Shown piece by piece: positions 3,356-60,897 of a DNA stretch of 64,000 nucleotides. The position numbers were made by a program, and so were the translations under genes. Positions within the stretch are counted from its first letter, which is position 1; the number at the start of each line of letters is the position of its first letter. The stretch lies in the NCBI GenBank assembly GCA_050288105.1, contig JBNKDE010000014.1, positions 10,539 through 74,538 of the forward strand. The letters are read 5' to 3'. The notes under the pieces were generated by a model that was given only the letters and a program-made list of their open reading frames with translations, was not told where the DNA came from and did not search any database. The DNA comes from Gammaproteobacteria bacterium (lineage in GTDB: Bacteria; Pseudomonadota; Gammaproteobacteria; GCA-001735895).

Positions 3356-3423
3356 GGATACCTGTAATAGTGAATCGAGAAACCATCGACCACTTTTTTA
3401 ATTTTTAGTATGTAACTATCAGG

Positions 3424-4968
3424 TCAGCCAGAATACTTTTCCAGTAACAGAGAGGTACCTTTCATCTCTTCCGGCTGAGCTATACCCATTAATTGTAGTA
3501 GAGTTGGCGCAATAGCAGACAAATTTTCTCCTGTTGTCAGGCGCCATGGTACTTCATCAATGACCAGACAGGGAACAGGATAGATCGTATGCTGAGTATG
3601 CGGCTCTCCGGTTACAGGGTCGACCATTTCATCACAGTTACCATGATCAGCGGTCAATATAACGGAATAACCCTCTTCTACCGCTACGTCCAGAACCCGT
3701 CCAACCTCTTTATCCAGAGTTTCTACTGCTTTTATCACCGCGTCGCGTACGGCAGTATGTCCGACCATATCACCATTCGCAAAGTTCACTACCAGAAAGC
3801 TGTAATCGTGCGATTTTAATGCCACGATCATTTCATCTGCTACCTTCTCAGCACTCATTTCCGGCATTAAATCGTAGGTAGAGACGTCAGGGGACTGGAT
3901 CATATTCCGATCCTCACCTGGAAAGCGATGCTCGCGTCCACCGTTAAAGAAAAATGTCACATGTGCATATTTCTCTGTTTCTGCGCAATGAAACTGCTTA
4001 AAACCGGACTGACTGATAATACTACCCAGTGTTACTTTGGGCCGCTCAGGAGGATAGGCAATAGGTGTCAGGAACTCGGGATCATATTGCGTCATACAGG
4101 TAACCGTAATCGGCTCATAATCGCCACGATCAAAACAGCTGAACTCACCATGACTCAACGCGGCTGTTAACTGGCGCGAGCGGTCATTACGAAAGTTAAA
4201 AAAGATCAGCTCATCACCTTTTTTAACAGGGATAAAATCTGGCATCACGGTGGGCTTGATAAACTCATCGGTTTCACCTGCTTCGTAGGCATCGTGCAAG
4301 GCCAGGGTGATATTTTTAGCCTGATTGCCTTCTCCGTGCACCATTGCTCGCCAGGACAGTTCGGTGCGATTCCAGCGGCGATCTCTATCCATTGCATAAT
4401 AGCGACCATGTAAAGTGCCGATGACCCCGCCATATTCGGAAAGCGCCAGCTCCAGATCGTGTAAAAAACTCATCGCAGACTTTGGCGGTGTATCACGCCC
4501 ATCGGTAATCAGGTGTACCTGAGGCAATACCCCATGCATAGAGCACAGCTTAATCAGCGCCAGCAGATGATTCAGATGGCTGTGCACCCCGCCATCAGAA
4601 ACCAGCCCTATCAGGTGTAACGGCCGCTCCGATTTCCTGGCATGATCAATCGCCGACAAAAAGGCAGGGTTGGAAAAAAAGCTTCCTTCTTTGATCGCAT
4701 CATCAATACGAACCAGATCCTGCTTTACAATCGACCCACAACCAATCGTCATATGGCCTACTTCTGAATTTCCCATTTGTCCTACTGGCAACCCCACCCC
4801 ACGGCCTGAGGCCTCAAGTGCGGTATGTGGATAGGAGGAAAAATAACGGTCCAGGTTGGGTGTATTAGCTTCGATTACCGCATTATTCACCTTGCTTGGA
4901 TTCAAGCCGAATCCATCCATGATAATTAAAACGGCTGGTCTACGCGGGACGGATCTCGCTTCTGGCAT
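3424..4968 (-). CDS. gpmI: 2,3-bisphosphoglycerate-independent phosphoglycerate mutase
   Basis: 514 aa with iPGM motifs (ILDGFG-like IMDGFG, NSEVGH, DGGVHSH, ADHGN). Confidence 0.95.
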   Translation of the reverse strand: MPEARSVPRRPAVLIIMDGFGLNPSKVNNAVIEANTPNLDRYFSSYPHTALEASGRGVGLPVGQMGNSEVGHMTIGCGSIVKQDLVRIDDAIKEGSFFSNPAFLSAIDHARKSERPLHLIGLVSDGGVHSHLNHLLALIKLCSMHGVLPQVHLITDGRDTPPKSAMSFLHDLELALSEYGGVIGTLHGRYYAMDRDRRWNRTELSWRAMVHGEGNQAKNITLALHDAYEAGETDEFIKPTVMPDFIPVKKGDELIFFNFRNDRSRQLTAALSHGEFSCFDRGDYEPITVTCMTQYDPEFLTPIAYPPERPKVTLGSIISQSGFKQFHCAETEKYAHVTFFFNGGREHRFPGEDRNMIQSPDVSTYDLMPEMSAEKVADEMIVALKSHDYSFLVVNFANGDMVGHTAVRDAVIKAVETLDKEVGRVLDVAVEEGYSVILTADHGNCDEMVDPVTGEPHTQHTIYPVPCLVIDEVPWRLTTGENLSAIAPTLLQLMGIAQPEEMKGTSLLLEKYSG

Positions 4969-5148
4969 TGATAAAACTCTTATTTATAGTCGACTTAAAT
5001 GAGCAGCCATTATACACCAATCGTCAGACTCTGTGAGCACACATATATCGGGAAATTTTTGCCTGATAATGGTGAATTTATTTAACACCGTAATTTGAAC
5101 AGCAGTTCTCGCGATACAAACATTCAACCCTAAATGCGTGTTACCAGT

Positions 5149-5673
5149 TCAGGCAAAGGTATCCAGTTGATTACCCAGTCTGGCATCTTCAGCAGCAGAT
5201 TGCTGAACTGTCGCCGACCTGGCTTGCTGAATCATGGAAGTTGCAACTGCAGCTACCTGCCGATCCTGTACTGAAGGGTTGACGGGTGCCAGAGCCGCCC
5301 TGAGAATGACCTGTGCCTTCACCAGAGTAGACTGCGGATCTCCTGGGATCTCACTGGTATCAATACTTACCTCACCCGAGGTTGCATAATTACGCCCGTC
5401 GGAGCCTCTTTCATATTGAAATCTCGCTCCTGAGGTAACGTAACGCCCACCCACGCTCTGGTGTGCAAGTTCATGCGCCCGTACAGCTCGATCAATCGCC
5501 CTTAATTGCTGTAACTGGCGCTGTTCATTAAATTTATTTTCAGCCTCGGCTGCTCGGGAAGATTCGCTGGGCTGAGTGGAAGTTTTATTATCGCTGGAGG
5601 GGTCAGATTTTGACCGAAAAGAGCTATTGGGCTGGTATGAAGTTAGATGACTGGAAGCATTGATTTGCATCAC
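5149..5673 (-). CDS. SprA-related family protein (putative HExxH metalloprotease, CJM1_0395-like)
   Basis: 174 aa. The N-terminal half is low-complexity and Ser/Gln-rich. It is followed by AHELAH (HExxH) and then GGRY..GA.F.YE.G.DG..YA..GEVSIDTS..PGDP..T, as I remember for the SprA-related family. No signal peptide is seen. Confidence 0.6.
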   Translation of the reverse strand: MMQINASSHLTSYQPNSSFRSKSDPSSDNKTSTQPSESSRAAEAENKFNEQRQLQQLRAIDRAVRAHELAHQSVGGRYVTSGARFQYERGSDGRNYATSGEVSIDTSEIPGDPQSTLVKAQVILRAALAPVNPSVQDRQVAAVATSMIQQARSATVQQSAAEDARLGNQLDTFA

Positions 5674-13159: not shown

Positions 13160-14100
13160 GAAACAATCCCGATCATGGCATTAGTACTTTCAACCAGCGC
13201 CTGCGCGATACCCGGTTCAGATGCAGCATGGCCAGCATCCGGTATGATTTTTAGCTGGCTTTCCGGCCATTGTGCATTTAATGCGTAAGCCTGATCGATC
13301 GGGCAGATCGCATCATAGCGGCCATGCACGATGAATCCAGGGATATGGCTAATGCGATCCATATTGTCGAGCAACTGGTTCTCCTGCAAAAAACCCCGGT
13401 TGATGAAGTAATGGCACTCTATGCGCGCAATACTCAACGCCATATGCGGATCAGCAAAATAATCCAGCACCTGACCATTTGGACGCAGCGTTGCAGTGCT
13501 ACCCTCCCATATCGACCAGGCTTTGGCCGAAGCCATACGCTCCAGCTCATTATCACTGGTCAAACGACGGTGATAAGCAGCAATCATATCTTGCCTCTCC
13601 TGCTCAGGAATCGGTTGTAAAAATGCATCCCAGGCGTCAGGAAATAACCTGGAAGTTCCATATTCATAAAGCCAGCTGAGATCCTGTTGCCGACATAAAA
13701 ATATACCGCGTAAAACCATGCCCAGCACCCTGTCCGGGTGAGATTGTGCATACGCCAGCGCCAGTGTAGAACCCCAGGATCCACCGAATAAAACCCATTT
13801 TTCAATCCCCAGTTTCTGGCGGATTTTTTCCATATCATCGATTAGGTGCTGGGTTGTATTCTGATGCAGGCTGGCATGCGGACGGGATTTCCCACATCCA
13901 CGTTGATCAAACAGGATAATCCGGTATTTCTCAGGATCAAAAAAACGCCTGTGCACAGCCTCGCAGCATGCACCTGGACCACCATGCAGAAAAATGACAG
14001 GTATACCAGCGGCATTACCGCACAGCTCTATATAGAGCTCGTGCTGGCTGGAAACCTGCAAATAAAAATGGCTATCAGGCTGGATCGCAGGGAAAAGCAT
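13156..14100 (-). CDS. pip: Prolyl aminopeptidase (proline iminopeptidase)
   Basis: 314 aa with HGGPG, DQRGCGKS and GGSWGSTL (Ser nucleophile) motifs. Confidence 0.9.
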   Translation of the reverse strand: MLFPAIQPDSHFYLQVSSQHELYIELCGNAAGIPVIFLHGGPGACCEAVHRRFFDPEKYRIILFDQRGCGKSRPHASLHQNTTQHLIDDMEKIRQKLGIEKWVLFGGSWGSTLALAYAQSHPDRVLGMVLRGIFLCRQQDLSWLYEYGTSRLFPDAWDAFLQPIPEQERQDMIAAYHRRLTSDNELERMASAKAWSIWEGSTATLRPNGQVLDYFADPHMALSIARIECHYFINRGFLQENQLLDNMDRISHIPGFIVHGRYDAICPIDQAYALNAQWPESQLKIIPDAGHAASEPGIAQALVESTNAMIGIVS

Positions 14101-33503: not shown

Positions 33504-36500
33504 TCAGGCTAGCGAAACCCTGACGTTTTTAGGATTCGACTTAAGCTGCTGCAACTGGCTCTCGAGTCGATCCAGCACCTGTTTTGATGTCTCTTCAGGC
33601 TTCACCTCGGTCACTGACGCCACAAGGTCAAAATGCACACGGTGACCCAGATCATTGGACTGAATATCTTGCTGAATCGCGCTTAACATAGCTAGCGCCT
33701 GGTCACCATTCGAGCCTGGCAATACCAGCATGAAACAACTTTCATCCCAACGCGCCAGGATATCGGTGCCTTTTAAATGAGAATGGATAATATGCGAAAT
33801 CGACAGAATGACATCGTCGTATAGCTGATTTTCTAACTGATCCTTAATCGTTTTGATATCTATATCCATTAAAATCAAAGAGAGCGGTTCACATTGATAG
33901 TGACTGCGTTTTAGCTCCTGCTGCATAAATTCACACAAATACGAACGCGTCAGCGCCCCGGTTAATTCGTCACGGGGTTTATCGGTATGCCCTGTTAGAT
34001 CGACGATACGACGACTCATCACTTCAGATAGATTGCGATACAGCCGCATCGAGATCCTTGGATGAAATAAACCCAGCTGGCGGATACCGCTCCATTTCAT
34101 CTCCAGCGCGCGAACCTTTTCCTGCGCAGTTACTCGAGACATACGCTCACGCTGTGATAACTCCGCAACTTCCCCAAACAGATCCCCGGCCTTCAGGTAG
34201 CCCAGGGTGTGAACAGATCCATCGGAATCGCGATGTGTCGCTTTTGCAGAGCCTTCCAGCAATACAAAAAAGGTATCGCCCTGCACACCCTGGTCAACGA
34301 TCACATCCCCTCTTTTGAACTCTCGAATAGCCCCGGAAAGAATCGCGCGCTTAATTTGAAAGCTTTTCAGCCCTTTGAATACAGGGCTATTTTTTAATAC
34401 ATCATCTTTCAGGTTGAGTGAAAGCATATCCCATACTGAAATGAGCCGAATAAAGGACAACAAAACCGGTGTCAGTACAAAGGTTGAGAACATTGCCAGC
34501 ACCATTACCAGAGCGCTCAATGCCCCAAAGTAAATCACTGGCTGAAAACTCGACAGCATCAATGTTGCGAATCCCAGCGCCAGCGCAATAGAGGTCGTGG
34601 TAATCGGGGTTGCTTCATGCAGAATGGTTTTTCTAAGCGCCAGCTCAACATCGTCGGTACCACGGGTAAAGAAATGATAGCGTGTCAGAAAATGTATCGT
34701 GTCATCCACACAGATACCCAGAGCGATTACAGCCACCATGGTAGTACCTGAATCCAGTGGGATCTGGTAATACCCCATCACCCCAAACAGGACCACGACG
34801 GAAAAAACGTTAGGGACCAGCGCGATTATGCCAGCACGAAAATCCAGAAATAGAATAGACACCAGCAGCAATATCACCACCACCATTAAAAACAGTGACT
34901 GAATCTGCCCCCAGGCCAGCGCATCAGCGGCCTTGTTACTCAATACCGAGTCTCCGGTCAGGGTGATCTGCATACGCGACTTTAAATCGTGCCGGATATA
35001 GTCCTCAATTTCCTGGAAAGCCTGCTTCAACTTTTCCGAATTACCCTGGTTATGACGAACCAGAATGCGCGTACTGCTATAATCAGGGTTCACATAAGCG
35101 CTCACCGCACCAAACTGTACGAACTGCATGTACACCTCAATCACTTCATCCTCAAACGGCAGGCGGGGCTCACTAATGCCTTCCATGGCCTTATGCGTGA
35201 GCTTGATAAAATCTGCAAAAGAAAAGCTTTTATCGAACACACCCTGCTGCGCAATAAACTGTTGGATCTTTTCAATATCCTCCAGGTATCTTACTTTTTT
35301 AAAGGTACCCTCGATCGCAGAATCCAGGATGATGGAAAAGGTCTGCATGCCTGATAAATCCTGATGAATCTGATCAGCACGTTGACGCACCTCCGAATCG
35401 TCACTGAAATAGGCCATCGTATCGTTATTGACCTCTAAAAACTGCGCTCCCCAGGCAAAATACCCGGCAATAACCATTAACAGTAATAAGGTGGTTTTCT
35501 TGATGCGCATCACCACAGAAAAAATACCGACGGCGACACTCTGAAACTTGTTCTGCCTAAGTGTTAAATGCGTGTTTTTCCCGCCAAATAAACGCAGATA
35601 GGCAGGAACAAATAGTGTCGTGACCAGGAAGTTAATCCCCAACCCACCGGATACCAGCCAGCCGAACTCCTGCAATAGTTCGAGATCGCTCACCGTAATA
35701 GAGACAAAGCCAGCAGCCGTGGTTAAAAAAGCCAGCATCACTGCCAGATGCTGATTCACCGGAAGGCGCTTAACGGCTTCATCCCGCGACAGTCCTTCGC
35801 GCAGACCGCTGTGGTACTCAGCCATCAGATGTACATCTTCGGTTGAGCCGATAATAATCAGTAAAGCGGGAATAATAGAGGTTAGTACATTAACTGGAAT
35901 TTCCATCCAGGCCATGTAGGACAGGGTCAGGACGATACTGATAATCGCTGAAGAAAGCGGCACGATAGAACAGTTTAGTCTGCCCATACTCAGCCCCAGC
36001 ACGACCAGCAGCATGGCCAGGGCAGCAGGCATAATCGACTTCATATCGATCTGTATCTGTCGCGAAATCTGGTCTCGCACATAGGGGGAGCTCATCTGAA
36101 ATGCGTTATCCAGAACAGCCTTAAGGGGTTCCAGCTCACGCTCAATAGCCCCAGTGATTTCAGCATCCCTGCCCAGACGCTTGGAAGTCTGCTCAATGAA
36201 CAGATTAATCGCCATGGTCTGATGATCCGACGAGAGCAGGTTTTTATCCACCAGGGTATTGGCTGCGGCATCCTCCAGCAGCACTTTTATGTCTTCCACT
36301 TGCTGAGGAATTTCCAGCAGGAACGGCCTGGTTTCAATAAAACCATTCACCTCCTTTACATTCGGCACGTCAAATAACGAACTGGTCGAATGCACAAAAT
36401 CCAGTCGTTTCAGGCGCTTTACTGTTGCTCTGATCGCTTCCAGTTTAGCGGGTTGAAACAGGTCCTTATCCGACAGGATCAGCATAACAACGTTATCTGA

Positions 36501-36686
36501 TCCAAATTGCCTGACTGAATCCTGGTAAAACTTCCAGCTTGGGTCGGATTTTGCCAGCAGGCTTTGTGCCGAGATATCAAATTTAAGGTTCGAGATTTGT
36601 GGCGCAACCGAAGCTGTCAGCACCACCAGCGCCAGCAATACCAGACGCGGGTATAGAAAAGAAAAATTAAGTAACCACCTAACCAT
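33504..36686 (-). CDS. Fusion protein: RND-superfamily/MMPL-type exporter (12 TM, COG1033/HpnN-like), cNMP-binding domain and degenerate GGDEF domain
   Basis: 1060 aa. Residues 1-750 have a 1+5 / 1+5 TM layout with two large periplasmic loops. Residues 762-890 form a CAP-type cNMP-binding domain (FGEVAEL...RMSRVTA). Residues 905-1045 form a GGDEF fold (DELTGALTRS) in which RWDESCF replaces RxGGDEF. Confidence 0.8.
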   Translation of the reverse strand: MVRWLLNFSFLYPRLVLLALVVLTASVAPQISNLKFDISAQSLLAKSDPSWKFYQDSVRQFGSDNVVMLILSDKDLFQPAKLEAIRATVKRLKRLDFVHSTSSLFDVPNVKEVNGFIETRPFLLEIPQQVEDIKVLLEDAAANTLVDKNLLSSDHQTMAINLFIEQTSKRLGRDAEITGAIERELEPLKAVLDNAFQMSSPYVRDQISRQIQIDMKSIMPAALAMLLVVLGLSMGRLNCSIVPLSSAIISIVLTLSYMAWMEIPVNVLTSIIPALLIIIGSTEDVHLMAEYHSGLREGLSRDEAVKRLPVNQHLAVMLAFLTTAAGFVSITVSDLELLQEFGWLVSGGLGINFLVTTLFVPAYLRLFGGKNTHLTLRQNKFQSVAVGIFSVVMRIKKTTLLLLMVIAGYFAWGAQFLEVNNDTMAYFSDDSEVRQRADQIHQDLSGMQTFSIILDSAIEGTFKKVRYLEDIEKIQQFIAQQGVFDKSFSFADFIKLTHKAMEGISEPRLPFEDEVIEVYMQFVQFGAVSAYVNPDYSSTRILVRHNQGNSEKLKQAFQEIEDYIRHDLKSRMQITLTGDSVLSNKAADALAWGQIQSLFLMVVVILLLVSILFLDFRAGIIALVPNVFSVVVLFGVMGYYQIPLDSGTTMVAVIALGICVDDTIHFLTRYHFFTRGTDDVELALRKTILHEATPITTTSIALALGFATLMLSSFQPVIYFGALSALVMVLAMFSTFVLTPVLLSFIRLISVWDMLSLNLKDDVLKNSPVFKGLKSFQIKRAILSGAIREFKRGDVIVDQGVQGDTFFVLLEGSAKATHRDSDGSVHTLGYLKAGDLFGEVAELSQRERMSRVTAQEKVRALEMKWSGIRQLGLFHPRISMRLYRNLSEVMSRRIVDLTGHTDKPRDELTGALTRSYLCEFMQQELKRSHYQCEPLSLILMDIDIKTIKDQLENQLYDDVILSISHIIHSHLKGTDILARWDESCFMLVLPGSNGDQALAMLSAIQQDIQSNDLGHRVHFDLVASVTEVKPEETSKQVLDRLESQLQQLKSNPKNVRVSLA

Positions 36687-45806: not shown

Positions 45807-48800
45807 ATGATTCAAAAACTGGTTCTTCTCAAAGCACTGCTAACTGCGGCCCTGGCATTAAGTGGCCTGCTGCTTTACGTTCCTGTCAGCCTCGCTCAGC
45901 AGGCTGAAAATACTGCTTTAAGAGAGGTCACTTTACAGCTGCTGTGGAAACACCAGTTTGAGTTTGCCGGATTCTATGCGGCAAAAGAGAAAGGTTTTTA
46001 CCAGGCTGCCGGCCTCAAGGTCAACATTCAACCCTTTATTCCCGGCGCAGACGCACCGATAAAAAAGGTTATTGATGGACAGGCGGACTTCGCTGTGGGT
46101 GATTCAACCCTTATCGTCAATCGCGCCAAAGGAGCTCCAGTAAAACTGCTGGCCAATATCTTCCAGCATAGCCCTTACGTGTTACTTACCCTGGCCGATT
46201 CAGGCATTCATTCACCAGCTCAAATGGTCGGCAAAAAAATTATGCTCGCCAAGCATGAAGAGTCTAATGCCGAGATTAAAGCCATGCTGGCCTCCGAGTC
46301 AGTTAGCCTGGACCAGATGCAGGTCATTGAACACAGCTTCCAGGTAGATTCATTAATCAATGGTGATGTGGATATCATGTCTGCATACGCATCCAATGAA
46401 CCGGCTGTTTTAAAGCAAAAGGGCATCAGATTTAACGTCATTAATCCACTCAACTATGGTATCGATTTTTACGGCAATAATATCTACACCAGTGAGCAAC
46501 TTGAGCAAAAAGACCCTGCATTAGCCGAAGCCTTTACGCTGGCGAGCCTCAGGGGCTGGCAGTACGCACTACAACATAAGGAAGAAATGATAGAGCTTAT
46601 CCTGCAGAAATATTCGCAGGAAAAATCCATTGAAGCACTTAAGTTTGAAGCCGATGCGATTGAACAATTCATTCTGCCTGATTACATTCCCATCGGCGAG
46701 GTAAACCTGGATCGCCTGCAGAGAATTGCCGACGTCTACAAACATCTGGGGGCTATTCCAAAAGATTTTTCACCTAAAGAAATTCTGAGTGAAAATATCC
46801 AGCAAGAGCAAAAGTTAAATTTAAGCTTGACTGAAAAACAGTGGATCAGCGAACATCGCAGCGTTGTCATTGGCGTAGACCCTGACTGGGCACCCTTTGA
46901 ATTTATCGACGAGGATGGCAATTATTCCGGTATGGCCTCTGAATATATCAAGCTGGTTTCTCAAAGAACCGGCCTGATATTTAAGGTACAGGATAATGAA
47001 ACCTGGCTAGATGTCATTAATAGTGCCAAAGCGGGCAAACTCGACCTGCTCCCCGCCATTAGCTGGTCTGCACAACGAAGTAACTACCTGAATTTTACCA
47101 GCCCGCATATGAGCTATCCCATGGTGATTTTAACCAATAAGGAAAGCGAGTTTATCAGCCAGATTGAGTCACTGGATGGTAAAAAAGTGGTTGTAGTCGA
47201 TGGCTATGTAACCGAGGAATTGTTACGCAGCAAACATCCGAATATTGAGTTAATAGAAGCAAAGAATATCAACCAGGCGCTGGACATACTTTCTTCGAAT
47301 GATGCCGATGCCTACATTGATAACCTGGCCAGCATTACCTACAGCGTGAATAAACGTGGCATAAACAATCTGCGTATATCAGGCACCACACCTTATGAAT
47401 TCTCACTGGGGTTTGCGGTTATTAAAAAGAATGATCAATTATTTAGTATATTGCAGAAAGCCATTAACTCAATAACTGACCAGGAACATCAGGCCATCCG
47501 CAACAAATGGATTAACCTGCGTGCTGAATCAGCCTTTCCTGTAGGAACCATACTGGAAATCACAGCAATTGCTGCATCGTTCCTGCTTATCATGCTGTTC
47601 TGGAACCGAAAACTCTCCGCAGAGGTTAAGCGCAGGAAAATTTTTGAAAAAGAGCTTGCTTCCAAGGAAAAAAGATTTCGCGAATTATTTGAAAATAACA
47701 AGGCAATAGAGTTAATTATTGACCCGCAAAGCGGGGTCATAGTCGATGCAAACAATGCTGCACTAGCTTACTATGGCTACTCTAAAGAAGAGATAAAACA
47801 GCAGAATATTACCGACATTAATACGCTGTCAAAGCAGCAGACACTGGCTCAGAGCAAACTGGCAGAGCTGCAGAAACAATCACATTTTTTCTTTAAACAT
47901 CGATTAAAAAATGGCGAGATAAGAGACGTTGAAATTCATTCTGGACCCATTAACTGGGATGGAAAACAGTTACTCTACTCGATTATTCATGACATTACTG
48001 ACCGGGTTATCGCTGAAAACGCCTTGATCAAGGCAAAGGCCGAAGCAGAGAAAGCCACACGTGTTAAGAGTGAATTCCTGGCTAATATGAGCCATGAATT
48101 ACGCACCCCCATGAATAGCGTCATTGGTATGACTGAACTGCTTATCGAAACCGATCTAGACCAGGAGCAGAAAAAGATGCTGGAGATTATTCAAAGCTCC
48201 GGCAAGGTTTTAATTTCAACGATTAACGACATCCTGGACTTTTCCAAACTGGAAGCGCAGCGTATGGAAATCGACCCACAGCTGTTTGAACTTAAGCCTT
48301 TTATCCAGGATATGTTCGAAACCATGCGTAGCCTGGCGAGGCAAAAGCCGCTCGAGCTGTTACTTGAATGCGACAATCAATGTGATGTGCTGATGTACTG
48401 CGACGAAACCAAACTGCGCCAGATTCTCACCAATCTGGTTAGCAATGCAATCAAGTTTACTCCGCAGGGGTCAGTTACCCTGAAAGTCAGCCGCAAAAGC
48501 ATTGATAACACACAGGCAAGCTTTCAGTTTCAGGTGATCGATACAGGTATCGGCATTTTCAGGGAACAGGTCGATCACCTGTTTGATTCCTTTACCCAGG
48601 CTGAGCAATCAACAACCCGGCAGTTTGGCGGAACCGGACTAGGGCTGGCGATCAGTAAAAAACTCAGCACTCTGCTTGGTGGCGATATCCAGGTCCAGTC
48701 CAGCCCTGGAAAAGGTTCCTGCTTCACGCTCACCATAGATACCGTTTACAGGCTGTCAACACCCGCGCAGCCAACACAGCAACAGCTGACGTCTCAGGCA

Positions 48801-49577
48801 GAACCTGCGAAAAGACAAAGCTTTAATGCCCAGATACTGGTGGCAGAGGATGTATTACCCAACCGCATCCTGGTTCAGAAAATGCTGGAGAAATTCGCGC
48901 TGAGCTGTGAGTTTGCGGAAAATGGGCAGGAAGCGGTTGAGTTGTTCAAAGCCCGCCACTACGACCTGATCCTGATGGATTGCCAGATGCCTATTCTGGA
49001 TGGTTATAGCGCCACAGAATTGATCAGAAAAATCGACCCCAAAATCCCGATTCTTGCACTAACAGCCAATGTCATGCGGGAAGACCGTGAAAAGGCTCTG
49101 GCCTGCGGAATGAATGATGTCATCACCAAACCGATACAGATAGACACACTGGGACAGTACCTGAATCAGTGGCTGGAGAATTACAAGATACCGCAAACCG
49201 ATGCCGAGCAAGCACAGGAGCAGGCTGCACAGCAGGCCCTGGACAATTTAATCGATTATCAGCAGCTGGATAAATTCAAACAGGATCTGGAAGAAGATTT
49301 TGCCGAAATTTTCCACGCAATCCTGTCCAGTATTCCCTCAATGATTGATGAACTTGCCGAGCAAACACAGGATACAGAAGCATTAACCCGTCTGTTTCAT
49401 AGCCTGAAATCACCCGCCGCCTCTATCGGCGCGATGGAATTATCCAGACTCGCAGAGAAATACGAATTGCAGTTGAAAAACAATCAGTTGCAGGATCTGT
49501 CGATTCCCATTCAATTGCTACGTGACCAGTTCAATGCGGTGAAAAAAGAACTGAAAGATTACCCTGTCAATGCCTGA
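45807..49577 (+). CDS. Hybrid sensor histidine kinase: signal/TM, NMT1/THI5-like binding domain, SBP_bac_3 (PBPb) domain, TM, PAS, HisKA, HATPase, REC, HPt
   Basis: 1256 aa with the H-box [14 protein letters not shown], the G-box [11 protein letters not shown], the REC domain ILVAEDV...LILMDCQMP, and the HPt domain [12 protein letters not shown]. Two periplasmic binding-protein folds precede the TM helix, giving a BvgS/EvgS-like logic. Confidence 0.9.
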
Positions 49578-53902: not shown

Positions 53903-54007
53903 TAACCCCGCGCTAATCCTAATTCACCCCGCTTACACCTCGATAAATAACTGAATTGACAACAGTTTTTCCCTGAGATTACTATCAGTAGTAATAACAA
54001 TAAAAAA

Positions 54008-54041: not shown

Positions 54042-55316
54042 ATGGGGATCTCACTTAAGAATGGTGTCATGCTCTCGCTGATATCGATAACTAGTCTGTT
54101 TACTTTTTTCCAATCCGCACATGCCGTTCCGGCTTTTGCCCGACAAATGGGGACAACGTGCGCCGCCTGTCATTTTCAAAACTTTCCTGCGTTAAATTCA
54201 TTTGGTCGGGTATTTCGCTCGAATGGATATACCATGCAGGGCGCGCAGACAATGATACAGGGTGAGGGTTTATCTCTACCTTCAACAATCAATGCGAGCG
54301 TAATCACCAAGATTCGTTACCAGGACAAGAAATCCAGTGATCGCGGAGAAATTCAATGGCCCGATGAAGCGGCCTTTCTGGTTGGCGGGCGTGCATCTGA
54401 AAACGTAGGCTTCCTGATGGAGTTGGGTCTGGGGCCTGTGGGTGCTGATGTAGAAACAGGAACGGGAGAAATCACAGGCGATACCAATGGAGATGGCATT
54501 AAGGATCCTGGTGAAAACTGGGTTATAAGTGGTGAAACCCACGGTACCTTTCTGTCTACCAAAGTGCACTTTAATGTGACCGATAGCTTTGCCATTATCC
54601 CATTCTCTACCGATGGACTGGGTGTAGGTTATGGTTACGAAATGCTGAATACTGGCGTGCAGAGATCACAACGACCGATAGAAAACCGTAAAGGATTCAG
54701 TGCCGGACAGGCACTGGGCACAGCCTCAGGTGAGGCCACAGGTATTGCCTTTATCTACAATACACCGGAATTTTTCGTCAACTACTCTCACTGGGCGCCG
54801 ACCTGGGGCAATGTTAATGCCGATATTTTTGGCGGACTAGCTCATTACCTGAGGGTCGCTTATATGCCCAATATCGGTGGCTGGGATACAGGGTTTGGTA
54901 TAAATGCGATGTCCGGCAGCGTAGAGTCCGGCGAGAATGACCCGGCAGATGAAACCTTTGTCGATAGCTGGGGAATTGATGCCCAGGCCCAGGGATTTGT
55001 GGGAGATATGACGCTCGGCATCTATGCAAGCTATGGCGAAGCTCCAAAAGGTACCTCAGCCGAGCCCAATAAATACAACAAGAGCACAACTGATGACGCC
55101 AGTTCGTTGGGGGTAGCTACAAAACTGGGAATTAACTCTAAAACGGCTGTCTATCTCGCCTATGCTTCACTGGATAAAAACGGAACCAAAGAATCCTCAA
55201 ACACCGTGGGCATACAATATCATTCAGCACAAAATATCAAGCTGGAAGCATTCACAGTGAGTGAATTTGACAGCGCAGATGACTACACCATGCTGATGTT
55301 GTTTGCTGGTTTCTAA
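54042..55316 (+). CDS. Cyc2-like fused monohaem cytochrome c / outer-membrane beta-barrel porin
   Basis: 424 aa with a signal peptide (..FQSAHA). The only two Cys in the protein form CAACH (54159-54173), followed by FPALNSFG. The remaining roughly 370 aa are Gly/Tyr/Ser-rich with amphipathic beta-strand periodicity, and the protein ends in a C-terminal Phe (LFAGF). Confidence 0.55.
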   Translation: MGISLKNGVMLSLISITSLFTFFQSAHAVPAFARQMGTTCAACHFQNFPALNSFGRVFRSNGYTMQGAQTMIQGEGLSLPSTINASVITKIRYQDKKSSDRGEIQWPDEAAFLVGGRASENVGFLMELGLGPVGADVETGTGEITGDTNGDGIKDPGENWVISGETHGTFLSTKVHFNVTDSFAIIPFSTDGLGVGYGYEMLNTGVQRSQRPIENRKGFSAGQALGTASGEATGIAFIYNTPEFFVNYSHWAPTWGNVNADIFGGLAHYLRVAYMPNIGGWDTGFGINAMSGSVESGENDPADETFVDSWGIDAQAQGFVGDMTLGIYASYGEAPKGTSAEPNKYNKSTTDDASSLGVATKLGINSKTAVYLAYASLDKNGTKESSNTVGIQYHSAQNIKLEAFTVSEFDSADDYTMLMLFAGF

Positions 55317-55347
55317 CACAATATTAAGGATAGACAATTATAAAATT

Positions 55348-55380
55348 TGAGCTGGTGATGCGAAGAGTTTCAGCAGCTCA
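55348..55380 (+). other. Intercistronic stem-loop between the cytochrome-porin and dihaem cytochrome genes
   Basis: The stem is TGAGCTG / CAGCTCA (7 bp) with a 19-nt loop. No T-run follows. Confidence 0.4.
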
Positions 55381-55397
55381 CAAACGAGGTTAAAACT

Positions 55398-56057
55398 ATG
55401 AAAAAATTAAGAATAGGCAAACTGGGCTTGATGTTAATTTCAGGCATAACTCTCTGCTTTAATGCCGCCGCAGATTTTTCCAAAAGCTTTGAGGGTTACA
55501 CGTTATTTAAAGCCAATTGTGTAATCTGTCATGGTGCAGACGGTACCGGTAACGGCATCCTTGCAGACAGACTGAAGCAAAAACCCGCAAATCTAACCAA
55601 CCCGGGGCTGGCAACAAAAACTGACCATGAAATATTTCAGATCATAGAAGGTACGGCACCTCATAGCAAAGTCACAAACTTCATGCCGCAATGGGGTTTA
55701 GCCATGCCGCAAAACCATATTGAGTCGCTGGTTAAATATGTACGCTACCTGAATCAATCCAAGCACAGAAGTACAGGCAACCCAATTGCAGGTAAAAAAG
55801 TATATGAAGAATTCTGCAGCATCTGTCACGGTGCGGATGGCAAAGGAAAAGGCGTTCTGGCCAGAGTCTATGATATGACTCCAGCTGATCACACCAACGC
55901 CGAGCAAATGGATAGACTGGATAACGACACGCTTAAGGCTTATATCAAATCGGGTGGCGATGATACGCTGATGCCTGGGTGGGAGGACGTATTAAGCGGT
56001 CAACAGCTCAATGACGTCATCAGCTATATTCGTCTGCTTTCTGCCAATGGCAAATAA
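55398..56057 (+). CDS. Secreted dihaem class-I cytochrome c (c4-like)
   Basis: 219 aa with a signal peptide and two CxxCH motifs (CVICH, CSICH). Each is followed by GADG.G.G and a distal Met context (FMPQWG, LMPGWE). Confidence 0.85.
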   Translation: MKKLRIGKLGLMLISGITLCFNAAADFSKSFEGYTLFKANCVICHGADGTGNGILADRLKQKPANLTNPGLATKTDHEIFQIIEGTAPHSKVTNFMPQWGLAMPQNHIESLVKYVRYLNQSKHRSTGNPIAGKKVYEEFCSICHGADGKGKGVLARVYDMTPADHTNAEQMDRLDNDTLKAYIKSGGDDTLMPGWEDVLSGQQLNDVISYIRLLSANGK

Positions 56058-56065
56058 ATAACGGC

Positions 56066-56530
56066 TTAAAGTTCCTGCAGAATTCGCTGGCGAATTTCTT
56101 CGAATTCCTTTTCGCTGATTAAGTCATCATCCCTGAGCGCCTGCAACTGTTGCAGGCGCTTTTTTATGGACGAAGTCGAGGCTTCAAGTGCTGCTACCGA
56201 CTGCTCGGATGTGCAATCCAGTTTGATATTCGCACCCTGGCTGATCATGGTGGCATTCACCATCAAGGTTCGGGGCTCACAGCCCGCCTTTTTTAAGGTA
56301 ATCCGTCCATAGTCATCAACTTCATCGTCTGCAAACGTTACCGGAAAAATCTGGCGCAAGCCCACTCTGACCGGTGTCAATCCCAGCTCCTGGCGCATGA
56401 CAATCACCGACGCGCCTGCTGGTATTGAAGACACCATGACATCTTCACTAGTTTTATGGAATAGCGTATTTCCACTACAGGCTGCTATCAGCAGGCAAAA
56501 GCTCACTGCAACGATAAATCGGATACTCAT
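56066..56530 (-). CDS. Lipoprotein with a PEGA-like N-terminal domain and a SHOCT-like C-terminus
   Basis: 154 aa with a lipobox (LLIAACSG), the PEGA-like segment SSIPAGASV, and the SHOCT-like tail LISEKEFEEIRQRIL. Confidence 0.55.
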   Translation of the reverse strand: MSIRFIVAVSFCLLIAACSGNTLFHKTSEDVMVSSIPAGASVIVMRQELGLTPVRVGLRQIFPVTFADDEVDDYGRITLKKAGCEPRTLMVNATMISQGANIKLDCTSEQSVAALEASTSSIKKRLQQLQALRDDDLISEKEFEEIRQRILQEL

Positions 56531-58602: not shown

Positions 58603-60897
58603 GTGCAGTTCGCGCGCAATTTTATTGTATCGAGCATATTCCTGCTGTTTGGCTTATTCAGCCAGCACTTATGGGCAGATAATGCCAACAACCAGGACAA
58701 GGTACAGCTTAAATTACTCTGGCACCATCAGTTCCAGTTTGCCGGATATTATATTGCCATGGAAAAAGGATACTATTCGGCATCAGGCCTGGATGTCGAA
58801 ATCTCAGAATATGAGGGTAGTGAAGACAACATAGCGCTGGTGTTGTCCGGGCAGGCAGACTTCGCGGTTGCCCGCTCTAATTTAATCATAGATCGAGCCA
58901 TGGGTAAGGATGTTGTCGCTCTGTATGCAACCTTTCAAACCTCACCATTGATGTTACTGACCAAAGGATTCACCGGTCTTAATTCACCTGCCGATTTAAA
59001 AGGGCACAGAATCATGATCACTACAGCTGCCCAGAGATCTGGCGAATTACTCGCAATGCTCGCTCAGGCAGGATTAAGTCCCAGCGATTACGTCAGGCAG
59101 GAGCACAGCTTTAACATTGCAGACCTGATCAATGATAAAACCGATGCCATTGCGTCGTATATTTCCAATGAGCCTTACCGACTGATTCAGCATGGTATTC
59201 CCTATAACATCCTGCACCCCGCTGATTACGGGTTCAAAATGTACTCTGACCTGCTATTCACCTCGGGCAAGCGGGTTCGGGAAAATCCAGCCATGGTTGA
59301 AAAATTTTATCAGGCGAGTATTGCCGGATGGAAATACGCATTTGCCAATATCCAGGAAACTGCTGAGATTATCTATAAAAAATACAACAACCATCAACGC
59401 AGTAGAGAAGCTTTACTATTCGAAGGACAGGAGTTAAAGAAACTGGCTTTCGACGGCGCCGGTAACTTTGGCACCTTATCCCCACAAAGACTGCAATCAA
59501 TGGCCCAGGTCTATCTATTGACCGGTTTTCTGGAAGAGGAGCCCGAGCTGGATGGATTTATCTATCATCCCCCTTTAAAACCGTTAAACCTGTCTTACGA
59601 AGAACTGGAATATATTAAACACAAAAAGTCTGTAAACATTTGCGTGCAAAGCCATTGGGAGCCCTTTGAACAACTGCGTAACGGTCAGTTTGAAGGCATA
59701 GTCGCAGACCTGCTGGATCTGGTGCGAGATAAAACAGGATTGTCACTGCAGTTCAAGCCAACCGATTCAAGACAGCAGGCAGTCACCCTGACCTCTCAGC
59801 AAATATGCGACGCAACGACCCTGTATAATGTAGCAAAAAACAATACTAACCTGCTGTTTACCGATCCCATTATTAACATCACACATGCCTACCTGATCAA
59901 CAATCGTGACAAGCAACGACAGGAGATTACGCGCCATGTGGCTATTCTAAACCAGCAATTCTGTAATTACTGTACCGATCAATTATTACCCTCCAGTAAA
60001 CTTACCCGAGTGAATAGCCTGACTACGGGTATTCGTTACCTTAGAGAACAACGCGTAGATAGCGTGTTTGCCTCGGAAGCACAACTTCAACTGGCATTAT
60101 CTAAACAGCAGATAGACGATCTTTATATTAACAAAGAGCTACTTCCCAACTCAGGGCTGAGTCTGGCGGTATTCAATCAGCCGGCACTGTTAAACATATT
60201 GAATAAGGGCATACAGGCGATTAGCCAGCAGGAACGTGACCGCATCTTCAGCCAGCGCATGATCGCACTACCAGACTCGGGCCTCAGGACAACCACTTAC
60301 TGGGTTATTATCGGCCTGATCGCGGTTATATCATTATTTTTTATCTATCGATTCTATCGTGAATCTATGCGCAACCGCTTGCTCAAGGAATTATCCGAGA
60401 CTGACCAGCTGACCGGTATTGCAAACCGTCGAAAAATCATTGAAGAGGTCAATAAGTTTATTAATCTCGCACTACGCTATAACAAAAAACTGTCGCTGGT
60501 TTATTTCGATATAGATGACTTTAAACTGGTGAATGATCAATTCGGTCATGAAGCCGGCGATATGGTGCTGGTTGAACTGACCGAACTGATCCTGAAAAAT
60601 ATTCGAAAAACCGATCTGTTTGGTCGTCTGGGTGGCGAGGAGTTCGTGATACTTAGTCCCGAATCCGATATTACCGACTGTAAAAACCTGCTTTCCGGTT
60701 TACGTAGAAAAATTGTAAGCCATCAATTTTCCATTAAACATCAGATTAGCTGCAGTTTCGGTATTGCACAGTTCAGACCTCAGGATACCAGTGACTCTCT
60801 AATCAATCGTGCTGATTCTGCCATGTACAAGGCCAAGCATTCGGGAAAAAACACAGTAGTAGCTGTAAACCAGGAAAACCAGTATCTGTATGATTAG
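58603..60897 (+). CDS. Diguanylate cyclase with a periplasmic NMT1/THI5-like plus SBP_bac_3-like tandem sensor
   Basis: 764 aa with a GTG start and a signal peptide. The N-terminal roughly 300 aa are clearly paralogous to the N-terminus of the 45807-49577 kinase (LLWxHQFxFAGxY, GQADFAV). After a TM helix there is an intact GGDEF domain (DQLTGIANRR, RLGGEEF). Confidence 0.9.
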   Translation: MQFARNFIVSSIFLLFGLFSQHLWADNANNQDKVQLKLLWHHQFQFAGYYIAMEKGYYSASGLDVEISEYEGSEDNIALVLSGQADFAVARSNLIIDRAMGKDVVALYATFQTSPLMLLTKGFTGLNSPADLKGHRIMITTAAQRSGELLAMLAQAGLSPSDYVRQEHSFNIADLINDKTDAIASYISNEPYRLIQHGIPYNILHPADYGFKMYSDLLFTSGKRVRENPAMVEKFYQASIAGWKYAFANIQETAEIIYKKYNNHQRSREALLFEGQELKKLAFDGAGNFGTLSPQRLQSMAQVYLLTGFLEEEPELDGFIYHPPLKPLNLSYEELEYIKHKKSVNICVQSHWEPFEQLRNGQFEGIVADLLDLVRDKTGLSLQFKPTDSRQQAVTLTSQQICDATTLYNVAKNNTNLLFTDPIINITHAYLINNRDKQRQEITRHVAILNQQFCNYCTDQLLPSSKLTRVNSLTTGIRYLREQRVDSVFASEAQLQLALSKQQIDDLYINKELLPNSGLSLAVFNQPALLNILNKGIQAISQQERDRIFSQRMIALPDSGLRTTTYWVIIGLIAVISLFFIYRFYRESMRNRLLKELSETDQLTGIANRRKIIEEVNKFINLALRYNKKLSLVYFDIDDFKLVNDQFGHEAGDMVLVELTELILKNIRKTDLFGRLGGEEFVILSPESDITDCKNLLSGLRRKIVSHQFSIKHQISCSFGIAQFRPQDTSDSLINRADSAMYKAKHSGKNTVVAVNQENQYLYD

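What the first reader, a model, noticed from the sequence alone, without database searches (positions are those of the whole stretch)
54042..56057. Compact Cyc2-like cytochrome-porin plus dihaem cytochrome c module (candidate extracellular Fe(II)/electron-exchange conduit)
The 424-aa ORF has a Sec signal peptide. Its only two cysteines form a single CAACH haem-c motif 13 residues into the mature protein, followed by FPALNSFG. The remaining roughly 370 aa have a beta-barrel-like character and end in a C-terminal Phe. A monohaem cytochrome fused to an outer-membrane porin of about 400-450 aa is the defining architecture of Cyc2. Cyc2 is the outer-membrane Fe(II) oxidase of Acidithiobacillus ferrooxidans and of neutrophilic iron oxidisers such as Mariprofundus and the Gallionellaceae. 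A secreted dihaem c4-like cytochrome (CVICH, CSICH) starts 81 bp downstream. This reproduces the cyc2-cyc1 order of the A. ferrooxidans rus operon. No oxidase, cupredoxin or other respiratory partner is adjacent, and both flanks are unrelated genes. The pair therefore looks like a self-contained insertion in an otherwise housekeeping region. Its function in this organism (iron oxidation, other extracellular redox chemistry, or iron acquisition) is open.
Basis: partly seen in the sequence, partly recalled or inferred. Interest (0 to 1): 0.75.

Follow-up and report, generated by a model that had tools for sequence, protein, structure and literature searches.

The report
Cyc2-type cytochrome-porin electron conduit module
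This is a genuine member of the known Cyc2 family of outer-membrane iron-oxidising cytochrome-porins, encoded with a periplasmic two-haem cytochrome and a conserved small lipoprotein in an uncultured marine gammaproteobacterium; the kind is known and the new details are modest.

Summary
The 424-aa ORF (54042-55316) is a Cyc2-family fused monohaem cytochrome-porin. It carries the family-defining motifs (AVPAFARQ, 4 residues, CAACH, 4 residues, PAL), and these are invariant in its homologues. Profile comparison with Cyc2-type proteins of Sideroxydans, Gallionellaceae and Zetaproteobacteria gives probability 100 %, E 1e-74, over the full length. Comparison with Acidithiobacillus rus-operon Cyc2 gives 98 %, E 1e-13. 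The model is a roughly 16-strand porin-like barrel. In a distance tree the clade falls with the Cluster-1-type sequences of neutrophilic iron oxidisers (185/200 bootstraps).

ORF B (55398-56057) is a periplasmic dihaem class-I cytochrome c. It resembles Cyc1 in layout but is not its orthologue.

The downstream flank is not unrelated: the convergent lipoprotein gene (56066-56530, PEGA-like plus SHOCT-like) is a conserved partner. Nothing indicates a mobile insertion.

In 12 related loci the module lies 3-10 kb from the ccoNOQP-ccoGHI (cbb3 oxidase) cluster, which fits a path from Cyc2 through a periplasmic cytochrome c to cbb3.

Cyc2 homologues in sulfur-oxidising Gammaproteobacteria are already published. 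This is a new member of a known kind, and Fe(II) oxidation by it remains inferred.

The parts
53956..53985 (+). Sigma-70-type promoter of the cyc2-like operon (TTGACA, 18 nt, TACTAT)
   Evidence: Consensus scan, 10/12 matches. The -35 box is invariant and the -10 box nearly invariant in the three closest genome loci L001, L002 and L009. Function is inferred.
54042..55316 (+). ORF A: Cyc2-family fused monohaem cytochrome c and outer-membrane porin, 424 aa
54042..54125 (+). Signal peptide (aa 1-28, predicted cleavage after AHA)
   Evidence: Read from the sequence. Modelled as helix 2-21. No dedicated signal-peptide predictor was available.
54126..54251 (+). Cyc2 cytochrome module (aa 29-70): AVPAFARQ-MGTT-CAACH-FQNF-PAL-NSFGR; the CAACH codons are 54159-54173
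   Evidence: Matches the published AXPXFAR[Q/K][T/Y] ... CXXCH ... PXL signature. Invariant in the family. Same FARQ-to-Cys spacing as Acidithiobacillus Cyc2.
54291..55313 (+). Porin-like beta-barrel (aa 84-424, about 16 strands, C-terminal Phe)
   Evidence: AF2 model with pLDDT 70.9 and pTM 0.69. Foldseek hits to the porins OmpT, OmpU, OmpF, OprP 2o4v and OprO 4rjw at E 1e-11 to 1e-8.
54432..54545 (+). Clade-specific acidic insert in the second long loop (aa about 131-168, ...GDTNGDGIKDPGE...), probably surface-exposed
   Evidence: Hypervariable within the family. Absent from the Sideroxydans, Gallionellaceae and Zetaproteobacteria Cyc2-type proteins. Low model confidence. Topology is inferred from strand order.
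54612..54734 (+). Conserved third long loop (aa about 191-231) with invariant QRSQRPIENR; occupies the position of the lumen-folding loop L3 of classical porins
   Evidence: Invariant columns. A diverged counterpart, VRSIRWAEHRKE, occurs in Sideroxydans. Position from the strand order of the model. Its role is inferred.
55398..56057 (+). ORF B: secreted dihaem class-I cytochrome c (two tandem domains, CVICH and CSICH, each with an MP.W Met-ligand motif)
   Evidence: Pfam Cytochrome_CBB3 and Cytochrom_C, two stretches each. Best solved-structure matches are 6h5l_B (annotated conserved hypothetical cytochrome protein, E 3e-9) and cbb3 CcoP (3mk7_C, E 6e-9). The two halves are 28 % identical, E 3e-14. 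Directly downstream of ORF A in 23 of 29 genome loci.
56066..56530 (-). ORF C: conserved convergent lipoprotein (lipobox LIAAC at Cys18; PEGA-like beta-domain aa 30-105; linker; SHOCT-like helical hairpin aa 122-152)
   Evidence: Synteny. Family alignment. Pfam hits below cut-off for the window protein, but precomputed PF09851 and PF08308 hits on homologues. AF2 model. Reciprocal linkage test in metagenomes.
56135..56170 (+). Terminator-like hairpin (12-bp stem, 7 G-C pairs) plus T-run for the ORF A-ORF B transcript, embedded in the 3' coding part of ORF C
   Evidence: Scan. The stem is perfectly conserved in L001, L002, L009 and L295, whereas distant loci have ordinary intergenic terminators after ORF B. 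Function is inferred.

Best explanation
ORF A is a Cyc2-family (Cluster-1-type) outer-membrane protein. A short N-terminal monohaem c-type cytochrome module is fused to a roughly 16-strand porin barrel. By analogy with the biochemically tested Cyc2 of Mariprofundus ferrooxydans PV-1 and of Acidithiobacillus ferrooxidans, it takes single electrons from an extracellular donor at the cell surface. The most likely donor is dissolved Fe(II), which leaves Fe(III) outside the cell. The electrons pass to ORF B, a soluble periplasmic dihaem cytochrome c that is co-transcribed from a conserved promoter. ORF B carries them to an inner-membrane acceptor, most plausibly a cbb3-type oxidase. ORF C, a small outer-membrane lipoprotein with a beta-sandwich domain and an oligomerising helical hairpin, is a conserved accessory partner. 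I infer that it stabilises the barrel or helps the periplasmic cytochrome dock.

Shown here: family membership, the fold class, the conserved three-gene synteny, and the linkage to cco genes in relatives. Inferred: covalent haem attachment, Fe(II) as the substrate, the direction of electron flow, cbb3 as the acceptor in this organism, and any role of ORF C.
For: Family-defining motifs are present and invariant. BLASTP to rus-operon Cyc2 gives E 1e-10 to 1e-13 in pairwise searches, with a collinear weak barrel match. Full-length BLASTP hits of 27-32 % identity, E 1e-26 to 1e-58, go to Sideroxydans, Gallionellaceae, Nitrosomonadales and other Cluster-1-type proteins. hhalign gives probability 100 %, E 1.3e-74 over 356 columns against the iron-oxidiser set, and 98.1 %, E 1e-13 against Acidithiobacillus Cyc2. 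The neighbour-joining tree places the clade inside the Sideroxydans/Gallionellaceae/Zetaproteobacteria group in 185 of 200 bootstraps. The model is a porin barrel that matches OprP and OprO among others. ORF B is adjacent in 23 of 29 loci, and ORF B-like dihaem cytochromes also sit next to distant cyc2-type genes in Acidobacteriota, Nitrospirales and Binatia. The ccoNOQP-ccoGHI cluster lies 3-10 kb from the module in 12 related loci. The promoter is conserved and terminators follow ORF B. Published work shows Fe(II) oxidation by Cluster-1 Cyc2 (PMC8406198).
Against: No experiment exists for this clade. The host lineages (Thiohalomonadaceae, Sedimenticolaceae, Chromatiales, a tubeworm endosymbiont) are known as sulfur oxidisers, not iron oxidisers, and the literature states that the function of Cyc2 in such symbionts is undemonstrated (PMC12442345). 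In the window itself no oxidase is adjacent. The cco linkage is confined to one sub-branch and could be inherited synteny. The haem region and the conserved loop are modelled with low confidence.
Confidence: 0.6

Rival explanations
1. The protein is a Cyc2-family conduit, but it is used for general extracellular electron uptake (reduced minerals, electrodes, redox-active organics) rather than specifically for dissolved Fe(II) oxidation.
For: In the marine gammaproteobacterium 'Ca. Tenderia electrophaga' the cyc2 homologue is expressed more strongly at the less favourable cathode potential and is proposed to act in electron uptake from an electrode (PMC5371394). He et al. 2017 suggest extracellular electron transfer for tubeworm symbionts that carry Cyc2-like genes. 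ORF A's clade has a specific, variable, acidic surface loop of unknown role.
Against: Keffer et al. argue from structure that a monohaem Cyc2 oxidises dissolved Fe2+, whereas multihaem conduits handle solids (abstract). No multihaem cytochrome is linked to the module. I could not establish whether the Tenderia protein belongs to this clade.
Confidence: 0.2
2. The module oxidises Fe(II) mainly to detoxify it or to keep it out of the periplasm in sulfidic, iron-rich habitats, without meaningful energy conservation.
For: The hosts are sulfur oxidisers with other energy sources. He et al. cite a proposed Fe(II)-detoxifying role for Zetaproteobacterial epibionts. In the window the module is compact and not embedded in a respiratory operon.
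Against: The linkage to the cbb3 oxidase cluster in 12 loci suggests that electrons reach a proton-pumping terminal oxidase, which conserves energy by default. No stress or detoxification genes are conserved nearby.
Confidence: 0.12
3. The module serves iron acquisition, as an outer-membrane redox step that mobilises or imports iron.
Against: The Fur-box-like sequences upstream are at chance level (13/19, reached in about 18 % of shuffles) and are not conserved in orthologous promoters. No TonB receptor, feo or siderophore genes are conserved next to the module in 30 loci. The conserved linkage is to cytochromes and cbb3 oxidase genes instead.
Confidence: 0.04
4. ORF A is an ordinary porin whose CXXCH is fortuitous or does not bind haem.
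For: There are no Pfam, NCBIfam or PDB sequence hits, and the structural matches are to haem-free porins.
Against: Genuine Cyc2 proteins also get no Pfam or NCBIfam hits, because those libraries lack a Cyc2 model. CXXCH and the flanking signature are invariant across the family and across 111 motif-bearing proteins from many phyla. A cytochrome partner is consistently linked.
Confidence: 0.02

Closest known systems
Cyc2 Cluster 1 (Cyc2 of Mariprofundus ferrooxydans PV-1; Cyc2 of Gallionellaceae such as Sideroxydans), the fused cytochrome-porin Fe(II) oxidase of neutrophilic iron oxidisers (Keffer et al. 2021, PMC8406198)
   Same: Signal peptide; a single CXXCH with the AXPXFARQ[T/Y] and PXL signature at the same spacing; a length of about 400-430 aa; a roughly 16-strand porin barrel; an aromatic C-terminus. 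Full-length homology (hhalign probability 100 %, E 1e-74, 33 % identity). Falls in the same tree clade.
   Different: ORF A belongs to a distinct, tight gammaproteobacterial subclade (200/200 bootstraps) with much stronger barrel conservation (RGEIQWPDEA and QRSQRPIENR are invariant). It has a clade-specific acidic insert of about 35 aa. It has an adjacent dihaem cytochrome and a lipoprotein that were not found next to cyc2 in the Sideroxydans, Gallionellaceae or Zetaproteobacteria loci examined, although those loci are short. The hosts are sulfur-oxidiser lineages, and no activity data exist.
Cyc2-Cyc1 of the Acidithiobacillus ferrooxidans rus operon (Cluster 2)
   Same: The gene order, cyc2 followed directly by a dihaem c-type cytochrome of about 220-230 aa (L033: cyc2 3127-4584, cyc1 4596-5285). 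The homologous cytochrome module and first strands.
   Different: Beyond roughly residue 130 the barrel is only weakly similar. ORF B is not a Cyc1 orthologue, since it matches only at the haem motifs. There is no rusticyanin, cup or aa3 oxidase. In relatives the linked oxidase is cbb3. The organism is presumably neutrophilic and marine rather than acidophilic.
Cyc2-like genes of gammaproteobacterial chemosynthetic symbionts and 'Ca. Tenderia electrophaga' (He et al. 2017, PMC5566968; PMC12442345; Eddie et al. 2017, PMC5371394)
   Same: The same kind of host (marine sulfur-oxidising or electroautotrophic Gammaproteobacteria). ORF A's clade includes a Lamellibrachia tubeworm endosymbiont and Sedimenticolaceae. 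The function is equally unproven in those organisms.
   Different: I could not compare sequences directly with the published Riftia, Tevnia, lucinid-symbiont or Tenderia proteins, so membership of the same subclade is inferred. In the papers I read and the text search I ran I found no description of the lipoprotein partner or of the cco adjacency.
Porin-cytochrome conduits MtoAB/PioAB/MtrCAB
   Same: The overall logic of moving electrons across the outer membrane through a barrel that holds haem, with a lipoprotein component in the case of MtrC.
   Different: Those systems use a separate decahaem cytochrome threaded through a 26-strand barrel. Here a single haem is fused to a 16-strand barrel. 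There is no sequence relationship, and ORF C has no haem motif.

Membership tests
Cyc2 fused cytochrome-porin family | N-terminal signal peptide | tested here: met
   By inspection: a charged n-region, a hydrophobic h-region and an AHA|VP cleavage motif, modelled as helix 2-21. No SignalP-type tool was available.
Cyc2 fused cytochrome-porin family | A single CXXCH haem-c motif near the N-terminus | tested here: met
   One CAACH at residues 40-44, and these are the only two cysteines. Invariant in 38 homologues.
Cyc2 fused cytochrome-porin family | AXPXFAR[Q/K][T/Y] motif upstream of CXXCH, stated to be unique to Cyc2 (PMC8406198) | tested here: met
   A-V-P-A-F-A-R-Q-M in the window protein. 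The last position is M rather than T/Y, but the family consensus has T. The FARQ-to-Cys spacing equals that of Acidithiobacillus Cyc2.
Cyc2 fused cytochrome-porin family | PXL motif 4 residues downstream of CXXCH | tested here: met
   CAACH-FQNF-PAL, with P49 and L51 invariant.
Cyc2 fused cytochrome-porin family | Length of at least 365 aa (the FeGenie filter) | tested here: met
   424 aa.
Cyc2 fused cytochrome-porin family | A roughly 16-strand porin barrel with structural similarity to OprO and OprP | tested here: met
   The AF2 model has 16-17 strand elements over residues 84-423, pTM 0.69. Foldseek finds 16-strand porins at E 1e-11 and includes 2o4v and 4rjw. Confidence is moderate.
Cyc2 fused cytochrome-porin family | Sequence homology to functionally verified or canonical Cyc2 | tested here: met
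   hhalign probability 98.1 %, E 1e-13 against rus-operon Cyc2. Probability 100 %, E 1.3e-74 against Sideroxydans, Gallionellaceae and Zetaproteobacteria Cyc2-type proteins.
Cyc2 Cluster 1 | Phylogenetic placement with Zetaproteobacteria, Gallionellaceae and Chlorobi Cyc2 | tested here: met
   Neighbour-joining tree of 112 sequences, clade support 185/200.
Cyc2 fused cytochrome-porin family | A score above the FeGenie Cyc2 HMM cut-offs | not testable with these tools
   The FeGenie HMMs are not among the libraries. Pfam and NCBIfam have no Cyc2 model, because genuine Cyc2 also scores nothing in them.
Cyc2 fused cytochrome-porin family | Covalent haem, outer-membrane location and Fe(II)-oxidising activity | not testable with these tools
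   These need expression, haem staining, fractionation and an Fe(II) oxidation assay.
Cyc1 / cytochrome c4 of iron oxidisers (ORF B) | Orthology to A. ferrooxidans Cyc1 | tested here: not met
   BLASTP against the Cyc1 that lies downstream of cyc2 in L033 matches only 18-22 residues around the haem motifs. ORF B is a dihaem class-I cytochrome of the PF13442 type, and its closest solved relatives include cbb3 CcoP.
PEGA domain / SHOCT domain proteins (ORF C) | Pfam PF08308 and PF09851 above the gathering score | tested here: inconclusive
   The window protein scores 17.6 bits (cut-off 20.8) and 20.2 bits (cut-off 27). Homologues carry precomputed PF09851 or PF08308 hits. The model shows a beta-sandwich-like domain plus a helical hairpin, and only weak transthyretin-like fold matches.

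The most novel reading that the evidence does not exclude
The PEGA/SHOCT lipoprotein (ORF C) is a previously unrecognised third component of many Cyc2-type electron conduits. It would be an outer-membrane-anchored periplasmic partner needed for assembly or stability of the cytochrome-porin, or for docking of the periplasmic cytochrome. The evidence is that it is genetically linked to cyc2-type genes of two very different Cyc2 clades in two different gene arrangements: convergent with the PAFARQTG type, and co-directional immediately downstream of the P.FAR[KR]Y type.
Probability: 0.3. Interest if true: 0.55.

Novelty: new member of a known kind. Interest (0 to 1): 0.35.

Why it matters
Cyc2 is the main genetic marker used to infer microbial iron oxidation from genomes, yet its function outside the classical iron oxidisers is untested. 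This locus belongs to a large and strongly conserved clade (more than 500 sequence clusters) in marine sulfur-oxidising Gammaproteobacteria, including an animal symbiont. The clade sits next to the best-validated Cyc2 cluster in the tree. If it is active, these widespread sulfur oxidisers would also draw electrons from Fe(II) or other extracellular donors, which bears on iron and sulfur cycling in sediments, vents and symbioses. The module is compact (two co-transcribed genes plus one lipoprotein gene), which makes it a convenient candidate for heterologous testing. The lipoprotein linkage and the adjacency to cbb3 oxidase genes give concrete hypotheses about partners that the Cyc2 papers I examined do not mention.

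Tried and rejected
(1) Pfam, NCBIfam and PDB sequence searches of ORF A found nothing. The control showed that genuine Cyc2 also scores nothing, so this is uninformative.

(2) Fur-box regulation. AATGATAATTATC between the promoter and the ribosome-binding site looked suggestive. The best matches are 13/19, a level reached in about 18 % of shuffles. They are not conserved upstream of orthologues, and similar scores occur throughout the window. Rejected.

(3) Mobile insertion. There is no GC anomaly, no flanking repeat and no tRNA gene, and a related MAG has the same gene order. Rejected.

(4) ORF B as a Cyc1 orthologue. Rejected.

(5) Automatic locus search with the ORF C alignment failed because no stretch was conserved enough.

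(6) My hand-written ORF C DNA pattern contained one N too many (145 nt instead of 144). The corrected pattern was validated on 21 known genes and used on metagenomes.

(7) The fold search of ORF C gave no significant match.

(8) A first tree attempt timed out, and a second had saturated distances and gave an invalid result. Only one search is used.

(9) There was no Rfam match in the window.
Full report
**1. The observation**

The ORFs are as described.
- ORF A (54042-55316, +) encodes 424 aa. It has a signal-peptide-like N-terminus and exactly two cysteines (C40, C43) in one CAACH, followed by FQNFPALNSFG. It ends in LFAGF.
- ORF B (55398-56057, +) starts 81 nt downstream. It encodes a 219-aa secreted protein with CVICH and CSICH.
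- Pfam assigns ORF B two Cytochrome_CBB3 / Cytochrom_C domains.
- These are the only CXXCH-bearing ORFs of at least 70 aa in the window.
- The rest of the window is housekeeping: ruvB, tatC, trkAH, fmt, rsmB, dprA, topA, hemF, pntAB, ABC transporters and signalling proteins. There are no RNA-family or tRNA hits.

**2. What ORF A is**

ORF A has no Pfam, NCBIfam or PDB sequence match. That is not evidence against the Cyc2 reading. Genuine Cyc2 from an Acidithiobacillus rus operon, and the Cyc2-type proteins of Sideroxydans and Zetaproteobacteria, also score nothing in those libraries.

ORF A has 542 homologous clusters at E <= 1e-3 in the large protein collection, and every named one is 'hypothetical'. 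A profile of the family finds 3,493 representative clusters at E <= 1e-3 and 214 at E <= 1e-30.

Keffer et al. 2021 (PMC8406198) define Cyc2 by:
- a signal peptide
- a single CXXCH
- an AXPXFAR[Q/K][T/Y] motif upstream of it, said to be unique to Cyc2
- a PXL motif 4 residues downstream
- a length of at least 365 aa
- a 16-strand porin resembling OprO and OprP

ORF A reads AVPAFARQ-MGTT-CAACH-FQNF-PAL. In 38 aligned homologues V29, P30, F32, Q35, C40, C43, H44, P49 and L51 are invariant, and the consensus is AVPAFARQTGMAC.SCHFQNFPALNSFGR.

To compare with real Cyc2, I fetched rus operons using rusticyanin as the query. I first checked that sequence against PDB entry 1CUR. Cyc2 lies upstream of rus with the N-terminus ALPSFARQTGWSCAACHTSYPQL. 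The comparisons gave:
- **BLASTP, ORF A against rus-operon Cyc2:** E 1e-10 to 1e-13 over residues 1-128, plus a collinear weak barrel match. These E-values are for tiny pairwise databases.
- **Motif scan of all genomes:** It yielded 111 motif-bearing ORFs from many phyla, mostly 380-510 aa long with aromatic C-termini.
- **Full-length BLASTP matches outside ORF A's own clade:** a Sideroxydans MAG (32 % over 411 aa, E 6e-58), Gallionellaceae, Nitrosomonadales, a vent gammaproteobacterium, Helicobacteraceae, Burkholderiaceae and Nitrospinota. Zetaproteobacteria match in two collinear segments.
- **Profile-profile comparison:** probability 100 %, E 1.3e-74, 356 columns against the iron-oxidiser set; 98.1 %, E 9.7e-14, 121 columns against Acidithiobacillus Cyc2.
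- **Neighbour-joining tree (112 sequences, 371 columns, 200 bootstraps):** ORF A's family is monophyletic (200/200). It lies inside the Sideroxydans/Gallionellaceae/Zetaproteobacteria clade (185/200). Acidithiobacillus Cyc2 falls in a separate clade, and the two clades join at 182/200. This mirrors the published Clusters 1, 2 and 3. I inferred the cluster labels from the taxa involved, not from published reference sequences.

The AF2 model (pLDDT 70.9, pTM 0.69) has about 16 long strands over residues 84-423. The haem region is modelled with low confidence, which is expected because no haem is included. Foldseek returns 16-strand porins at E 1e-11 to 1e-8, including OprP 2o4v and OprO 4rjw.

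Compared with iron-oxidiser Cyc2, this clade has an extra acidic insert of about 35 aa (residues about 131-168). The insert is variable: DTNGDG..DPGE in some members and a Cys pair in others. The clade also has unusually invariant barrel motifs (RGEIQWPDEA, QRSQRPIENR), which have diverged counterparts in Sideroxydans. By strand order, QRSQRPIENR sits in the third long loop. In classical porins that loop folds into the lumen. This assignment is an inference.

**3. The module and its context**

Genome loci with ORF A relatives are all uncultured Gammaproteobacteria: Thiohalomonadaceae, Sedimenticolaceae, Chromatiales and the endosymbiont of Lamellibrachia barhami.

*ORF B.* It follows ORF A in 23 of 29 loci. 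It consists of two tandem class-I cytochrome c domains, each with CXXCH and an MP.W motif. Its best solved-structure matches are 6h5l_B (E 3e-9) and the cbb3 subunit CcoP (3mk7_C, E 6e-9). It matches Acidithiobacillus Cyc1 only at the haem motifs, so the layout resembles cyc2-cyc1 but the proteins are not orthologous. ORF B-like dihaem genes also sit beside distant cyc2-type genes in Acidobacteriota, Nitrospirales and Binatia. They were not seen in the short Sideroxydans, Gallionellaceae or Zetaproteobacteria loci.

*ORF C.* The convergent ORF C (56066-56530, -) is conserved in 19 loci, including two that lack ORF B. Homologues also lie beside cyc2-type genes in a Burkholderiaceae MAG and in Wenzhouxiangella. 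It is a lipoprotein (lipobox Cys18) with three parts: a confidently modelled beta-domain (residues 30-105), a disordered linker, and a helical hairpin. Pfam PEGA and SHOCT hits are below cut-off for the window protein, but precomputed hits are on record for homologues. Fold matches are weak and transthyretin-like.

- 43 have a cyc2-motif gene within 4.5 kb. In 26 of these ORF C is co-directional and immediately downstream of P.FAR[KR]Y-type genes. In 17 it is convergent with PAFARQTG-type genes.
- Among the 13 loci with at least 3.5 kb on both sides, 10 have a cyc2-type gene and 3 do not.
- No paper in the library links Cyc2 with PEGA or SHOCT.

*cbb3 linkage.* In 12 loci (L012-L019, L022, L023, L025, L029) the module is followed by two Pfam-less genes. 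The cbb3 cluster follows on the opposite strand, 3-10 kb from the cyc2-type gene: a CcoI-type Cu-ATPase, FixH, FixG, FixP, FixQ, FixO and CcoN. Every one of these loci that extends far enough shows this. The window and its closest relatives lack this adjacency.

*Transcription signals.* A TTGACA-18-TACTAT promoter at 53956-53985 is conserved in the closest relatives. ORF B and ORF C are 8 nt apart. The only terminator-like hairpin (56135-56161, plus a T-run) lies inside ORF C, where it encodes KKRLQQLQAL. Its stem is perfectly conserved in four relatives. Distant loci have ordinary intergenic terminators after ORF B. This supports a two-gene ORF A-ORF B operon.

**4. Mechanism**

The best-supported explanation is as follows.
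- A Cyc2-type outer-membrane monohaem cytochrome-porin takes electrons from an extracellular donor. The most likely donor is dissolved Fe(II), as shown for Cluster-1 Cyc2 of Mariprofundus PV-1 (PMC8406198).
- It passes them to the periplasmic dihaem cytochrome ORF B.
- ORF B passes them to an inner-membrane acceptor, plausibly cbb3 oxidase.
- ORF C acts as an accessory lipoprotein.

Family membership, fold class and the genetic linkages are shown here. The substrate, haem attachment, the direction of electron flow, the acceptor in this organism and the role of ORF C are inferred.

The rivals are:
- general extracellular electron uptake, as proposed for cyc2 of 'Ca. Tenderia electrophaga' (PMC5371394)
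- Fe(II) detoxification
- iron acquisition, which is disfavoured because there is no credible Fur box and no linked iron-transport genes
- a haem-free porin, which is disfavoured by motif invariance

**5. Comparison with what is known, and novelty**

Cyc2-like genes are already reported in gammaproteobacterial symbionts:
- the Riftia, Tevnia and Ridgeia tubeworm endosymbionts (He et al. 2017)
- lucinid 'Ca. Thiodiazotropha', where the authors note that iron oxidation has not been demonstrated (PMC12442345)

Stand-alone cyc2-cyc1 pairs are known in Acidithiobacillus (PMC10654088).

The finding is therefore a new member of a known kind. The modest new points are the conserved lipoprotein partner, the cbb3 adjacency in one sub-branch, and the clade-specific loop.

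GC content is unremarkable, there are no flanking repeats or tRNA genes, and the related MAG GCA_050295535.1 has the same gene order.

**6. Caveats**
- Pairwise BLAST E-values refer to tiny databases.
- The loci from classical iron oxidisers are short, so absence of partner genes there is weak evidence.
- One genome scan was wasted on a mistyped pattern.

Noticed in passing
window 56135-56170 (+), inside ORF C: A perfect 12-bp hairpin plus T-run that would terminate the ORF A-ORF B transcript is built from the palindromic codons for KKRLQQLQAL of the convergent gene. The stem is identical in four relatives, while distant loci use ordinary intergenic terminators.
   Followed up: partly
window 33504-36686 (-): A 1060-aa protein that joins an MMPL/RND-type membrane transporter domain to a cyclic-nucleotide-binding domain and a GGDEF diguanylate cyclase domain. 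This is an unusual fusion.
   Followed up: no
window 45807-49577 (+) and 58603-60897 (+): A hybrid histidine kinase and a GGDEF protein share the same NMT1/THI5 plus SBP_bac_3 periplasmic sensor module. They bracket the pntAB-esterase-cyc2 region.
   Followed up: no
L022:12617-13117 and 13175-13852 (also in L012-L019, L023, L025, L029): Two conserved genes without Pfam matches, one encoding a membrane protein, always sit between the ORF C lipoprotein gene and the cbb3 oxidase maturation genes in 12 loci. They are absent from the window.
   Followed up: partly
window 54432-54545 (ORF A aa about 131-168); alignment A1 columns about 150-205: A hypervariable, clade-specific loop. Some members have a Ca-binding-like DTNGDG..DPGE sequence, others have a Cys pair (C..NPADATTC), and a few lack the loop. 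It is probably surface-exposed.
   Followed up: partly
L179, L183, L276: A subgroup of ORF C homologues (N-terminus MFLKHSGKALALFNLLL.AGCSS) has no cyc2-type gene within 3.5-4.5 kb. The lipoprotein family is therefore not exclusively linked to Cyc2.
   Followed up: partly
L030 (A. ferruginosus CF3 plasmid pCF3-2) and L033 (A. ferrianus MG plasmid p1MG): In these two genomes, rus loci containing cyc2 (with cyc1 also read in L033) and rusticyanin lie on plasmids.
   Followed up: no
L128 (Zetaproteobacteria MAG), positions 13-57 and 3293-3337: Two cyc2-type genes in tandem on the same strand.
   Followed up: no
L133 (Nitrosomonadales MAG), about 1-538 (-): A different two-CXXCH cytochrome gene lies directly downstream of a Cluster-1-type cyc2. 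It is not detectably related to ORF B at E 1e-3.
   Followed up: no
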